Shown here one piece after another: positions 36,939-39,701 of a stretch of 64,000 nt of DNA. This DNA comes from Nitrosopumilus sp. (lineage in GTDB: Archaea > Thermoproteota > Nitrososphaeria > Nitrososphaerales > Nitrosopumilaceae), in assembly GCA_963667665.2 (NCBI GenBank), contig OY763927.2:1472001-1536000 (forward strand). The letters run 5' to 3'. The notes under the pieces were generated by a model. That model searched no databases. It was given only the letters and a program-made list of their open reading frames with translations, and had not been told where the DNA came from. Position 1 is the first letter of the stretch. Each line of letters starts with the position of its first letter. Made by a program: the position numbers and the translations under genes.

Positions 36939-37406
36939 ATGTTTGATAAATTCAGAGAAGGTGAAGGAGAGATGGTAGAAGAAAGAAGAGAGGAGAACAC
37001 GAATACTGAAGAATCTACTTCAACTGTAGAGTCTGGAAGTGAGATTGGAATTGGAGAATTAATAGGAAAACGTGCAAAATTAGAAGAAGCAATAGATTAT
37101 GTCGGTTTAATGATTAAGAATCTCAGAGATAAGAGAACTTTACTTGAAAAAGACATTGAAGAAGAATCAGTAGATATTAAGAATCTCAAAGAAAAACTAC
37201 AGAAAGTTAGTGAATACATAGAAGAGGAAAATAGAGGAATTAGGGATCTTTCAATTAAAAGAAAACAAGTAGAAGATGAAGCTGATCAAGTAGAAACAAT
37301 CATCAATACATTAAGAGACAGACTATCAGGAATTGATAGAATAATTGGTGATGAAGGTAGTAGAGTTAAGAGAATTAAAGAATCTAGAGATTCTCTAGAA
37401 GAATAA
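36939..37406 (+). CDS. Coiled-coil protein
   Basis: Heptad pattern, acidic; convergent with the cdvB paralogue. Confidence 0.7.
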   Translation: MFDKFREGEGEMVEERREENTNTEESTSTVESGSEIGIGELIGKRAKLEEAIDYVGLMIKNLRDKRTLLEKDIEEESVDIKNLKEKLQKVSEYIEEENRGIRDLSIKRKQVEDEADQVETIINTLRDRLSGIDRIIGDEGSRVKRIKESRDSLEE

Positions 37407-37417
37407 AAATTTTAGAA

Positions 37418-38059
37418 TTAGAGGAATTTAGCAGTAGTTGTTTCTTGAGTTTCTGTTGGAACTGAAGGGAACATTTGACCTGCAGAAGTCTCTGCAACAG
37501 CAGCAGCTTCTTTGAGAATACTTTCAGATTCTGCGTTAGTAGTTTCATCAACTCCAAATGCTGTATCTCCTGAGAAACTTTCTGTCATAAAGCCTCCAAG
37601 CATTTCTGCCATTTGACCAATTTCTTGCTCAGCCCCTGGCATTATTTTTCCAAGAGATGATTTTAGATTCTTCATCAAACCCATTGTTGGCATAATTGCT
37701 ATTACAGTATCTCCAAGATCACTGCAGGTAGTTAAGCGTAATTCAATTTGTTCTAATGCTATTCTAGCACTACTCAAAATTTTGGTAACTTTTCTTACCT
37801 CGGCTAACTCATTACCAAGAACTTTACTGGTTTGAGTATCGTGTTTTTGTGTTGCCTTTACAATTCTTTGAAATAATTTTGCATCACGTTCTTGTAAGTT
37901 TGTTAGCATTGAATCTAATTTTGTAATTTGTAATTGTAATTTTTTAATTCCATCCTGAACTCTTGGTTTTAGGGGACCTTTAGGCTTGAGTGTATCATTA
38001 ATTTTTTCAGTAATACTGGGTTGTGACTGTTTTGACCATTTACTAGACAAATTAGGCAT
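37418..38059 (-). CDS. cdvB: ESCRT-III/Snf7-family CdvB paralogue
   Basis: Highly similar to 1031-1684 (LKPRVQ..LQLQITKLDSML..LQERDA). Confidence 0.85.
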   Translation of the reverse strand: MPNLSSKWSKQSQPSITEKINDTLKPKGPLKPRVQDGIKKLQLQITKLDSMLTNLQERDAKLFQRIVKATQKHDTQTSKVLGNELAEVRKVTKILSSARIALEQIELRLTTCSDLGDTVIAIMPTMGLMKNLKSSLGKIMPGAEQEIGQMAEMLGGFMTESFSGDTAFGVDETTNAESESILKEAAAVAETSAGQMFPSVPTETQETTTAKFL

Positions 38060-38230
38060 AAGTTCGATTTTAGAATATGTACTTAATTTCAGGGGTGAAT
38101 ATTGATTTACAGTAGATAAAATTTTTCTAACTAAAATTAAACATTAGTGGTTTTTCTGAGGCTAGATTATGCAATATGTTCCTCATTAATTTAGAAATTT
38201 ATTTTTATAATGGAATTTAGAACTTAGTAA

Positions 38231-38674
38231 ATGAATAAAAAAATTATAATAATTCCCATTCTTATAATTACAATTTTAGTAGTTTTTTCATCAAATTCAT
38301 CTAAGGAAAAAAATATGATATTTCATGTAACTCTTGCAGATCCTGAACTGTACAATAATGGAGTTTATACTAATGCATTTACTATAGACAAAGGAGAATA
38401 TTATTTTAGATTTGTCCCAAATGGAAGTAGTCCAGATACGTTATCAATAAAATTGGCTGGAGAAAAATTATTTAATTTTTCTGAAGATTTTCAGCTTGAA
38501 AGTACCTCACACCAAACTGGAGCATCTGAATACTTTACATGGGAATATAATGGAAAGAAAACCATTTTGATTTCAGAGATGCAAACAGTTTTCATAATTA
38601 TTAATCCAAATGGAAATGTTATGGGTTCAGTATCTGTAGATATTTTAGAAAATAAAGAAGGCGTACACCCCTAA
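38231..38674 (+). CDS. Membrane-anchored hypothetical protein
   Basis: N-terminal TM, HVTLADP...FRFVPNG beta domain. Confidence 0.65.
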   Translation: MNKKIIIIPILIITILVVFSSNSSKEKNMIFHVTLADPELYNNGVYTNAFTIDKGEYYFRFVPNGSSPDTLSIKLAGEKLFNFSEDFQLESTSHQTGASEYFTWEYNGKKTILISEMQTVFIIINPNGNVMGSVSVDILENKEGVHP

Positions 38675-38790
38675 ACTGCAGAACTTTGAGAGATTTCCTC
38701 TCGTGGTCAGAACGTTAACGTCTGATTGCCTTTTTCGTTCTGCGGGGCTACGCAGTTTTAGTCGATAGGAATTATATCCTTCGGCATCAT
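38657..38790 (-). ncRNA. Candidate ~130-nt structured ncRNA
   Basis: GC-rich multi-stem segment with upstream TTAAATA box and downstream T-rich tract on the minus strand. Confidence 0.55.
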
Positions 38791-38884
38791 ATTATATAGT
38801 AACTTTAACTATTTAACATTTCATATGATAAATTATAAGATTTTATGATATTTTATAAAATATTTTGTGCCTATTCTGAAATAG

Positions 38885-39664
38885 TTGATCTATAAATTAC
38901 GAATTTTTGTGAAAAAAATATTGAGATTATCAGGAAAAATTGCAATAGTAACTGGTGGAAGTAGAGGAATAGGATTTGCTACTGCAAAAATTTTATCAGA
39001 AAATGGAGCAACAGTGGTAATTACAGCAAAGGATAAGGATAGATTAGAAAAATCTGTATTAGAAGTTTCTAATGCAGTTGGTATTGCAGCTGATATTAGA
39101 AAAAAAAATGAAGTAAAAAGTGTTGTAAATAAAACAATTGAGAAATTTGGAAAATTAGATATTCTTGTAAATAATGCTGGAATATTTCCAAAGATCAAAC
39201 CATTACATGAAATTGATGAGGATGAGTGGAATGAAATTATAGATGTAAATCTTACAGGACAATTTAGATTTACTAAGGAAGCAATTCCTCATTTGAAAAA
39301 ATCAGGTGGTTCAATAATTAATATTTCATCTGATGCAGGATTAAAGGCATATCAAGGATTTAATGCTGATGCATATTCTGCTTCAAAAGCAGCACTAATT
39401 TTGCTAACAAAATGTTGGGCACTTGAATATGCAAAAAATAAGATTAGAGTTAATTGTATTTGTCCTGGAGTAGTAGATACAGATATGACAAAGCCATTTA
39501 TGAAAACACAGAAAGATAAAGAATTCATGGATAGTGAGCATCCAATAGGTAGAATTGGTCAACCGGAAGAAGTAGCAAAAGCAGTAATGTATTTTGCATC
39601 AGATGATGCATCTTGGACTACTGGTGCAATACTTGCAGTAGATGGAGGAGAATCAATTAAATGA
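38885..39664 (+). CDS. Short-chain dehydrogenase/reductase (FabG-like)
   Basis: TGGSRGIG, NNAG, YSASK, VDGG; true start probably ~38921. Confidence 0.92.
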   Translation: MIYKLRIFVKKILRLSGKIAIVTGGSRGIGFATAKILSENGATVVITAKDKDRLEKSVLEVSNAVGIAADIRKKNEVKSVVNKTIEKFGKLDILVNNAGIFPKIKPLHEIDEDEWNEIIDVNLTGQFRFTKEAIPHLKKSGGSIINISSDAGLKAYQGFNADAYSASKAALILLTKCWALEYAKNKIRVNCICPGVVDTDMTKPFMKTQKDKEFMDSEHPIGRIGQPEEVAKAVMYFASDDASWTTGAILAVDGGESIK

Positions 39665-39701
39665 ATTCACATGAATTTAATACAACTATTGAGGATATAA
39701 T

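What the first reader, a model, noticed from the sequence alone, without database searches (positions are those of the whole stretch)
38657..38790. Unrecognised ~130-nt structured RNA with its own promoter and a possible pseudoknot or switch
Seen (plus-strand coordinates): GAAGG 38657-61 / CCTTC 38778-82 closing stem; CTAAACTGC 38671-79 / GCAGTTTTAG 38752-61; GCAGAAC 38678-84 / GTTCTGC 38737-43; hairpins GAGAG-ATTTC-CTCTC and TCAGAACGTTAACGTCTGA; GTACACCCC can pair with GGGGCTAC, overlapping the other stems. On the minus strand a TTAAATA box lies ~25 nt upstream and a T-rich tract follows. It does not resemble tRNA, 5S, SRP, RNase P or riboswitches I know. Inference: a stand-alone ncRNA (possibly ribozyme or regulatory), antisense to the end of 38231-38674.
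Basis: partly seen in the sequence, partly recalled or inferred. Interest (0 to 1): 0.7.

Follow-up and report, generated by a model that had tools for sequence, protein, structure and literature searches.

The report
Archaeal small RNA with mini-ORF
This is a gene for a small, tightly folded RNA found in nearly all marine ammonia-oxidising archaea of one family; it matches no catalogued RNA family and starts with a conserved nine-codon reading frame, so ribosomes probably act on it.

Summary
The GC-rich island is real. It is a stand-alone gene on the minus strand (about 38788 to 38650), with an archaeal TATA box 22 nt upstream and an oligo-T tract behind it.

Comparison of 101 homologues supports five helices:
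- a 5' hairpin (P1);
- a long P2/P3 stem;
- a three-way junction carrying a variable P4 and a near-invariant P5.

93.4% of cells are paired, and 23 of 32 pairs show changes on both sides. His two outer stems are not conserved, so no pseudoknot or switch is supported.

No Rfam 15 family matches. 5S, RNase P and SRP RNAs lie elsewhere in the genome.

A covariance model finds 1-4 copies in 132 of 151 genomes of the family (Nitrosopumilaceae by record titles). It finds none in 127 genomes of 19 sister families.

The 5' hairpin is also a leaderless mini-ORF:
- ATG at nt 2-4 in 97 of 101 sequences;
- a stop codon (TAA, TAG or TGA) in the same column in 101 of 101;
- length 30 or 27 nt;
- no internal in-frame stop;
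- stop codon 3-5 nt before P2.

Function is inferred only. My best reading is a ribosome-engaged regulatory RNA. It looks like a new family.

The parts
38810..38816 (-). TATA box TTAAATA, preceded by an A-rich BRE-like AAAT
   Evidence: TTAAAT sits at the same offset in 102 of 119 homologous promoters. It ends 22 nt before the ATG, which is the spacing peak (21-24 nt) of leaderless protein genes in this genome.
38795..38799 (-). Conserved CTATA element about 10-14 nt upstream of the RNA start
   Evidence: It shows in the position-wise consensus of 119 upstream regions. The combination BRE-TATA-CTATA occurs once in the 1.89-Mb genome.
38650..38788 (-). The small RNA itself, about 135-139 nt. 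The start is inferred from the TATA spacing and the end from the T-tract.
   Evidence: Covariance-model match at 38788-38654 in window coordinates, 147 bits with R1 and 134.9 bits with R2. The ends were not mapped experimentally.
38758..38787 (-). Leaderless mini-ORF: ATG 38787-38785, eight sense codons, TAA 38760-38758 (MPKDIIPID). A further in-frame ATG lies at 38790-38788.
   Evidence: In 101 homologues: ATG in 97, a stop codon in the same column in 101, length 30 nt in 98 and 27 nt in 3, internal in-frame stops in 0 against 83 (+1 frame) and 24 (+2 frame). 14 of 15 divergent copies keep it.
38763..38783 (-). P1 hairpin: 38783-38778 pairs with 38768-38763, with an AU-rich loop between them
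   Evidence: 5 of its 6 pairs show changes on both sides, and 86.2% of cells are paired.
38744..38753 (-). P2 5' strand (GCGTAGCCCC)
   Evidence: Pairs with 38671-38661. 6 of 10 pairs show changes on both sides. In other genera it is a perfect 10-bp helix.
38661..38671 (-). P2 3' strand (GGGGTGTACGC)
38737..38743 (-). P3 5' strand (GCAGAAC), stacked directly on P2
   Evidence: 98.2% of cells are paired, and 6 of 7 pairs show changes on both sides.
38678..38684 (-). P3 3' strand (GTTCTGC)
38707..38725 (-). P4 hairpin, variable in sequence and length
   Evidence: All 4 modelled pairs show changes on both sides.
38688..38702 (-). P5 hairpin GAGAG-GAAAT-CTCTC, with loop G-N-A-A/G-U. This is the most conserved block of the RNA.
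   Evidence: The three inner pairs are G-C in 101, A-U in 99 and G-C in 101 of 101 sequences; the two outer pairs covary. See the consensus line.
38649..38659 (-). T-rich tract (TTCTTTATTTT), the presumed archaeal oligo-T terminator
   Evidence: A T-run lies within 15 nt after the final GCC in 95 of 120 homologues.
38231..38674 (+). Convergent ORF of unknown function, not part of the RNA. Its last 17 nt plus stop codon overlap the RNA's 3' end in this genome only.
   Evidence: No Pfam family. It is conserved as cluster c0 in 36 loci, where it ends inside the RNA's terminator.

Best explanation
The element is an independently transcribed small-RNA gene on the minus strand (about 38788 to 38650). 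It belongs to an RNA family that is absent from Rfam 15 and that I found in no paper. In the genomes searched, the family is confined to one family of AT-rich ammonia-oxidising archaea, named Nitrosopumilaceae in record titles.

The RNA has two modules.
1. A weak 5' hairpin (P1) that is also a leaderless nine-codon ORF. The AUG is at nt 2-4, and a stop codon lies 3-5 nt before the next helix.
2. A GC-rich domain. A 17-bp coaxial P2/P3 stem closes a three-way junction that carries a variable P4 hairpin and a near-invariant P5 hairpin. An oligo-U tail follows.

Shown: the strand, the promoter, the fold, the taxonomic range, and the sequence-level conservation of the start, frame and stop.

Inferred mechanism: ribosomes load on the 5'-terminal AUG as they do on leaderless mRNAs. 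They read nine codons whose amino-acid sequence is not conserved, and they terminate against P2. A terminating ribosome would have to open P1 and part of P2. The fold of the conserved domain, and so its stability or its binding of a partner (probably a protein), would then depend on translational activity. On this reading it is a ribosome-engaged regulatory RNA, not a base-pairing sRNA.

My odds:
- RNA gene, strand and fold: about 0.95.
- Mini-ORF under selection: about 0.8.
- Mini-ORF actually translated: about 0.6.
- The coupling mechanism as stated: about 0.3.
For: Strand:
- 224 G-U against 36 A-C cells in the modelled pairs of 101 homologues.
- A TATA box at a fixed offset in 102 of 119 promoters.
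- A T-run follows in 95 of 120.

Fold:
- 93.4% of cells paired against 86.3% in shuffles, with 0 of 500 shuffles as high.
- 23 of 32 pairs change on both sides.
- Slid controls reach at most 56.8%.
- The minimum-free-energy fold of the window copy on this strand gives a 5' hairpin and the P2-P5 stems, close to the covariation model.

Range:
- BLAST: 35 of 36 same-genus genomes, often two copies.
- Model R1: 132 of 151 genomes and 25 of 27 genera of the family, 1-4 copies each.
- Model R2: 23 of 23 family genomes and 0 of 127 genomes of 19 other families of the order.
- The copies sit in different gene neighbourhoods, so it is a stand-alone gene.

Mini-ORF:
- ATG in 97 of 101 sequences; the other 4 have GTG or TTG one codon later.
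- A stop in the same column in 101 of 101 (TAA 74, TAG 21, TGA 6), never a sense codon.
- Length 30 nt in 98 and 27 nt in 3.
- 0 of 68 distinct interiors hold an in-frame stop, against 53 (+1 frame) and 20 (+2 frame).
- About 20 switches among the three stop codons on a rough tree.
- 14 of 15 divergent copies, including a third paralogue class with a different junction, keep ATG or GTG and an in-frame stop.
- The TATA-to-ATG spacing of 22 nt equals the peak for leaderless protein genes of this genome.
- The spacer from stop codon to P2 is 3-5 nt in 101 of 101.

Conservation is highest inside the helices and in the P5 loop, not in single strands. That pattern fits recognition by a protein or a tertiary fold more than antisense pairing.

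One metatranscriptome holds a 194-nt contig over 38581-38774, at a higher depth (12) than its neighbouring contigs (4-5).
Against: - No experiment shows the transcript, its ends or its strand. The RNA-library contig carries no strand, may contain DNA, and runs 75 nt past the predicted 3' end.
- In this genome alone the plus strand folds better (-49.4 against -42.5 kcal/mol).
- The peptide is not conserved (67 different peptides in 101 sequences), and 9 residues is very short.
- The G of the AUG is at the edge of P1, which could hinder initiation.
- 4 of 101 copies lack the ATG. The most divergent genus (g34) lacks both the start and the stop.
- The homologues are related, so the counts overstate independence. 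The tree rests on about 130 columns.
- The alignments were fitted to the model.
- No partner, target or phenotype is known. The proposed link between translation and fold is pure inference from geometry.
- A reduced-genome genus has no detectable copy (0 of 4 genomes with R1, 0 of 3 with R2), so the RNA is dispensable there.
Confidence: 0.5

Rival explanations
1. It is a purely structural or RNP-scaffold non-coding RNA. The conserved domain binds proteins. The 5' AUG and the nearby stop have no signalling role. The stop would be kept only so that ribosomes that accidentally load on a 5'-terminal AUG leave quickly and do not unfold the RNA.
For: Conservation is concentrated in P2, P3 and P5. 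The peptide sequence is not conserved. A few copies lack the ATG (4 of 101), and one genus lacks both start and stop while keeping the fold.
Against: If translation were only a nuisance, losing the AUG would be the simple solution. Yet the AUG is kept in 97 of 101 copies at the exact leaderless spacing. Frame and length are kept in three paralogue classes.
Confidence: 0.3
2. It is a small mRNA whose product, a 9-residue peptide, is the active molecule. The GC-rich domain would be a stabilising 3' UTR.
For: Start, frame and stop are conserved. The promoter spacing is that of leaderless genes. Lys at position 3 and Asp at positions 4 and 9 recur.
Against: There are 67 distinct peptides among 101 copies, with radical replacements between paralogues. 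The codons are tied to hairpin pairing. The 105-nt '3' UTR' is far better conserved than the ORF and covaries as RNA.
Confidence: 0.1
3. It is a cis element of a neighbouring gene. It could be the 3' UTR or terminator of the plus-strand ORF 38231-38674, an antisense regulator of that ORF, or a leader or attenuator of a co-oriented downstream gene.
For: The plus strand folds well in this genome. The RNA overlaps the ORF's end here. The next gene downstream is usually convergent and abuts the terminator. A mini-ORF followed by a strong stem and a U-tract looks like a bacterial attenuator.
Against: G-U against A-C counts (224 to 36) and the conserved promoter fix the minus strand. Paralogues lie in unrelated contexts. 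The overlap with the ORF is peculiar to this genome. The co-oriented downstream genes found in 4 of 19 contexts are unrelated: a sulfate-reduction enzyme, a CorA-type transporter and an unknown protein, all named by eye from the translations.
Confidence: 0.04
4. It is a divergent member of a known RNA class: an intron-bearing tRNA, 5S rRNA, a C/D or H/ACA guide RNA, a riboswitch or a small ribozyme.
For: The size and the three-way junction recall 5S rRNA and several ribozymes and riboswitches. The window copy starts with ATGATG and has an internal CTGA.
Against: - No Rfam match for the window copy, even at E up to 10.
- No Rfam match at E up to 0.1 for 20 divergent homologues.
- ARAGORN finds nothing.
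- The genome's 5S, RNase P and SRP RNAs are elsewhere.
- The family consensus has no C box, no terminal D box and no 3' ACA.
Confidence: 0.04

Closest known systems
Bacterial dual-function small RNAs (SgrS/SgrT, RNAIII/hld, SR1/SR1P; names recalled, not tested)
   Same: A stand-alone small RNA with its own promoter and terminator that carries both a conserved structured part and a short ORF.
   Different: Those ORFs encode conserved peptides of 26-43 residues with ribosome-binding sites, and the RNA part acts by antisense pairing. Here the ORF has 9 codons, is leaderless, lies inside a hairpin and has an unconserved peptide. Conservation lies in helices, not in single-stranded seed regions. 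There is no sequence or Rfam relation.
Leader-peptide attenuators and ribosome-stalling mini-ORFs (trp leader, erm and cat leaders; recalled)
   Same: A very short ORF whose translation, not its product, repositions a ribosome against a downstream helix followed by a U-tract. The stop codon to helix distance is fixed (3-5 nt).
   Different: Those sit upstream of the gene they control. Here there is no consistent co-oriented downstream gene. Archaeal termination does not need a hairpin (established knowledge). The downstream structure is a conserved three-way junction, not a pair of alternative hairpins.
tmRNA
   Same: A stable structured RNA that contains a short ORF ending in a stop codon and works on the ribosome.
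   Different: tmRNA needs a tRNA-like, aminoacylatable domain and an internal resume codon. ARAGORN, which detects tmRNA, finds none. Here the ORF starts at the 5' end with AUG. tmRNA is not known in archaea (recalled).
GC-rich ncRNAs of AT-rich archaea and environmental archaeal ncRNAs, such as Tan1 of marine group II Euryarchaeota (PMC5069720, passages read)
   Same: A lineage-specific, strongly structured small RNA of unknown function that stands out as a GC island. The family is confined to one marine archaeal group.
   Different: Tan1 is 229 nt and from another phylum. No similarity was seen, and no mini-ORF is described in the passages I read.
5S rRNA (RF00001)
   Same: About 120-135 nt, with a three-way junction closed by a terminal stem.
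   Different: No match of the 5S model at this locus. The genome's 5S gene is elsewhere at 78.2 bits.

Membership tests
Any Rfam 15 family (4227 models) | Score at or above the family's gathering threshold | tested here: not met
   0 matches on the whole window. At E up to 10 on 38500-38950 there were only 5 hits far below threshold, none aligned to the fold. 0 matches at E up to 0.1 for 20 divergent homologues.
tRNA / tmRNA | Cloverleaf or tRNA-like domain detectable by ARAGORN | tested here: not met
   0 genes in the window. The family consensus shows no T-loop-like block.
5S rRNA | Match to RF00001 | tested here: not met
   No hit at the locus. The single 5S gene of the genome is at C1:1252880-1252999.
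RNase P RNA / SRP RNA | Match to RF00373 / RF01857 | tested here: not met
   Both are present elsewhere in the genome above threshold, at 189.2 and 99.9 bits.
Box C/D sRNA | C box (RUGAUGA) near the 5' end and D box (CUGA) near the 3' end, forming a K-turn | tested here: not met
   The family consensus starts N-ATG-N-C-G, and many copies have AATG. The 3' end is CGCC plus a T-run. The only CTGA is the paired 3' strand of P4 and covaries with it. The box definitions are recalled.
Box H/ACA sRNA | Hairpin with a two-sided pseudouridylation pocket and an ACA triplet 3 nt from the 3' end | tested here: not met
   There is no ACA after P2, and P2 and P3 abut on the 5' side so no pocket forms. The definition is recalled.
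Leader-peptide attenuator | A co-oriented regulated gene directly downstream | tested here: not met
   The next downstream gene is convergent in both main contexts, 36 and 15 loci. Co-oriented neighbours occur in only 4 of 19 contexts and are unrelated.
Leaderless mRNA (archaeal) | Start codon at or within a few nt of the transcription start, i.e. about 22-24 nt after the TATA box | tested here: met
   The spacing is 22 nt. The peak for long ORFs in this genome is at 21-24 nt (9, 16, 15 and 6 cases against 0-5 elsewhere). The transcription start itself is inferred, not mapped.
Dual-function (coding plus structured) small RNA | The short ORF is translated | not testable with these tools
   Only sequence-level signs of selection are available.
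Stand-alone structured ncRNA gene | Own promoter and terminator, covariation-supported fold, conserved in different gene contexts | tested here: met

The most novel reading that the evidence does not exclude
The RNA is a new kind of archaeal riboregulator, a 'mini-mRNA' that senses translation. Ribosomes load on its 5'-terminal AUG, read nine arbitrary codons and terminate against the P2/P3 stem. Each passage unfolds the conserved three-way-junction domain. The amount of folded, partner-binding RNA would then report the cell's capacity for leaderless initiation. Alternatively, the highly expressed minigene could tie up ribosomes or particular tRNAs and so tune growth. This would be a family-wide control device in the most abundant ammonia oxidisers of the ocean, with no homologue among known RNA families.
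Probability: 0.25. Interest if true: 0.85.

Novelty: new variant of a known kind. Interest (0 to 1): 0.72.

Why it matters
Nitrosopumilaceae carry out much of marine nitrification, yet almost nothing is known about their RNA-based regulation. They cannot be manipulated genetically, so comparative predictions are the main entry point.

This is a near-universal, multi-copy, strongly structured RNA of that family. It is absent from Rfam 15, and my literature searches found no description of it.

The overlay of a covarying hairpin with a conserved leaderless nine-codon frame is unusual. It gives a directly testable hypothesis about how leaderless translation can be coupled to RNA structure in archaea.

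Even if the function proves mundane, the covariance model would improve annotation. In this genome the gene is at present overlapped by the end of a called ORF.

Tried and rejected
- Pseudoknot or tertiary pairs: a mutual-information scan with APC correction gave only the known helices, one extra P1 pair, and correlations between paralogue types.
- K-turn, C/D, H/ACA, hammerhead-type junction, tetraloop receptor in P1, and mimicry of the small-subunit rRNA 3' end by P2: considered by eye on the alignments. Each was dropped because the required nucleotides are not conserved across genera. These motif definitions were recalled, not tested by a tool.
- A second copy in this genome: none with BLAST, R1 or R2 at E up to 1.
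- Regulon search with a weight matrix of the AT-rich upstream element: 1740 genome hits at the cut-off, so it is unspecific.
- Viral contigs: one pattern match, inside coding sequence and without a model match, so a chance hit.
- Bacterial pattern matches in genome contigs: 0 of 9 match the model.
- Function from gene neighbourhood: the neighbours are a short-chain dehydrogenase, a hypothetical membrane-type ORF, an Snf7-like protein, a PurP-like protein (named by eye), TFB (named by eye), CorA (named by eye) and others. They share no common theme.
- Expression: four RNA-library runs were laid, and only one (X1) holds a contig over the element. X2 and X3 have no cover there. X5 has a 38-nt, 90-95% alike piece at 38733-38770 that runs on unlike the window. 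Parts without cover say nothing.
- Earlier findings of this scan: three look-ups, nothing held.
- Literature: 7 full-text searches found no description of this RNA. One search was badly framed (it required only 2 of 3 terms) and was uninformative.

Full report
**1. What is in the sequence**

Both strands fold better than dinucleotide shuffles: z is -3.58 for the minus strand and -5.08 for the plus strand, with 0 of 200 shuffles as good in each case. On the minus strand, TTAAATA lies at 38816-38810, and TTCTTTATTTT follows the last helix at 38659-38649.

**2. Known families are excluded**

- Rfam 15 gives no match on the whole window at gathering thresholds. At E up to 10 on the locus it gives only five far-sub-threshold hits. 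Twenty divergent homologues give nothing at E up to 0.1.
- ARAGORN finds no tRNA or tmRNA in the window.
- The genome's 5S rRNA, RNase P RNA and SRP RNA are all present elsewhere above threshold.

**3. Homologues and taxonomic range**

The window lies in a 1.89-Mb, 2-contig genome.

- BLAST of the element found it in 35 of 36 other genomes of the same genus, often twice. It found none in 24 genomes of other families of the order.
- I built covariance model R1 from 49 genus sequences. R1 matched over its full length in 132 of 151 genomes of the family (G000 included) and in 25 of 27 genera, with one to four copies per genome.
- I built a second model, R2, from 58 diverse copies with a hand-checked structure. 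R2 hit 23 of 23 family genomes and 0 of 127 genomes from 19 other families of the order.
- Genus g26 (0.8-0.9 Mb genomes, 93-95% complete) gave no match in 0 of 4 genomes with R1 and 0 of 3 with R2. Genus g34 gave only weak matches.
- This genome has a single copy.
- A pattern scan of named genome records returned records titled Nitrosopumilus, Nitrosarchaeum, Cenarchaeum, Nitrosopumilaceae or Thaumarchaeota, plus nine bacterial chance matches that fail the model.

**4. Strand, promoter and terminator**

Across 101 homologues, the modelled pairs contain 224 G-U cells against 36 A-C cells. The RNA is therefore the window's minus strand, even though in this one genome the plus strand folds more stably.

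TTAAAT sits at the same offset in 102 of 119 upstream regions. An A-rich BRE-like stretch precedes it, and a conserved CTATA follows it 10-14 nt before the start. That combination occurs once in the whole genome. A T-run follows the last helix in 95 of 120 copies.

The copies lie in unrelated neighbourhoods.
- Type A lies between a short-chain dehydrogenase gene and a convergent hypothetical ORF.
- Type B lies beside a PurP-like gene (named by eye).
- Other contexts occur in other genera.

So this is a stand-alone gene, not a UTR.

**5. The fold**

RNAalifold and pair counts on three alignments agree on five helices.

| Helix | Window coordinates | Notes |
|---|---|---|
| P2 | 38753-38744 with 38671-38661 | perfect 10 bp in other genera |
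| P3 | 38743-38737 with 38684-38678 | stacked directly on P2 |
| P4 | 38725-38707 | variable in sequence and length |
| P5 | 38702-38688 | near-invariant; loop G-N-A-A/G-U |

On 101 sequences, 93.4% of cells pair against 86.3% in shuffles (0 of 500 shuffles as high). 23 of 32 pairs change on both sides, and slid controls reach at most 56.8%. These alignments were fitted to the model, which favours it.

His closing stem and his CTAAACTGC/GCAGTTTTAG stem do no better than shuffles (69.3% against 69.1%). A mutual-information scan showed no further long-range pairs. Nothing supports a pseudoknot or a switch.

**6. The unexpected feature: a leaderless mini-ORF**

P1 coincides with a short reading frame. 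In the window it reads ATG (38787-38785), eight sense codons, then TAA (38760-38758).

In 101 homologues:
- ATG is in the same column in 97. The other four have GTG or TTG one codon later.
- A stop codon occupies the same column in all 101 (TAA 74, TAG 21, TGA 6). No sense codon ever occurs there.
- The frame is 30 nt long in 98 and 27 nt in 3.
- None of the 68 distinct interiors has an in-frame stop, against 53 in the +1 frame and 20 in the +2 frame.

Further support:
- A rough tree needs about 20 switches among the three stop codons.
- Fourteen of 15 divergent copies keep ATG or GTG and an in-frame stop. These include a third paralogue class whose junction differs. The exception is genus g34.
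- The TATA-to-ATG distance of 22 nt equals the spacing peak (21-24 nt) of long ORFs in this genome, which is the signature of leaderless genes.
- The stop codon lies 3-5 nt before P2 in 101 of 101.

The encoded peptides differ widely, with 67 versions in 101 copies. What is conserved is the frame, not the product.

**7. Expression**

Of four RNA-library runs laid on 37400-39700, one holds a 194-nt contig over 38581-38774. Its depth is 12, against 4-5 for its neighbouring contigs. Contigs give no strand and no ends, and the library may contain DNA. This is only a weak hint.

**8. Interpretation**

Shown:
- a conserved, independently promoted, structured RNA gene on the minus strand;
- a family restricted to Nitrosopumilaceae among the genomes searched;
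- a start-frame-stop arrangement that is maintained.

Inferred: ribosomes engage the 5' end as they do on a leaderless mRNA. Because the stop is 3-5 nt from a 17-bp G+C-rich stem, a terminating ribosome must open P1 and part of P2. This relies on the known ribosome footprint of roughly a dozen nucleotides downstream of the decoding site. Translation and the fold of the conserved domain would then be coupled.

Conservation sits inside helices and in the P5 loop rather than in single strands. That argues for a protein or tertiary partner and against antisense targeting.

I rate the rivals as follows:
- a plain RNP scaffold whose mini-ORF is only a fail-safe: 0.3;
- a peptide-coding mRNA: 0.1;
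- a cis element of a neighbouring gene: 0.04;
- a divergent member of a known class: 0.04.

**9. Novelty**

There is no Rfam family for this RNA. Seven full-text searches found no description. For PMC5069720 and PMC13475601 I read matched passages only. The former reports ncRNAs of other marine groups and refers Thaumarchaeota start sites to supplementary tables that I could not open.

In kind, the closest known things are bacterial dual-function sRNAs, leader-peptide attenuators and tmRNA. It fails the defining features of the last two, and there is no evidence that it is a member of any of them.

Noticed in passing
window 38657-38674 (+), end of ORF 38231-38674: In this genome the convergent hypothetical ORF runs 17 nt plus its stop codon into the RNA gene. 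In relatives the same ORF stops inside the RNA's T/A-rich terminator, where TTA on the RNA strand is the ORF's TAA. The overlap therefore looks like a lineage-specific C-terminal extension.
   Followed up: partly
window 38795-38799 and 38820-38850 (-): Besides the BRE and TATA box, the family's promoters share a CTATA element about 10-14 nt before the start and an AT-rich, partly palindromic stretch 40-55 nt upstream. The BRE-TATA-CTATA combination is unique in the genome. A weight matrix of the upstream stretch was too unspecific to define a regulon.
   Followed up: partly
L098 (G194:C1:1604300-1604875): Two copies of the RNA gene lie in tandem about 300 nt apart in one genome of another genus. 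Both have a mini-ORF, one of 30 nt and one of 27 nt.
   Followed up: no
L256-L259 (G077, G139, G098, G142): A third, divergent paralogue class (30-35 bits with R2) keeps P1 with its mini-ORF, P2 and the terminator. It lacks the canonical P5 hairpin sequence.
   Followed up: partly
genus g26 (G064, G091, G115, G134): The only genus of the family without any match has very small genomes (0.8-0.9 Mb; three are 93-95% complete and one 79%). This suggests the RNA was lost during genome reduction.
   Followed up: partly
window 37418-38059 (-): The next co-oriented gene is a weak Snf7/ESCRT-III-like protein (Pfam E 2.2e-4, below the curated cut-off). RNA-library contigs over 37934-38020 show a 'goes back 87' joint, which suggests a short repeat there.
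   Followed up: no
L185 (JAICOU010000033.1): A record titled 'Nitrososphaeraceae archaeon' carries a full-strength match (127.9 bits), while 127 genomes of other families had none. The record's label probably reflects a different taxonomy rather than a wider range.
   Followed up: no
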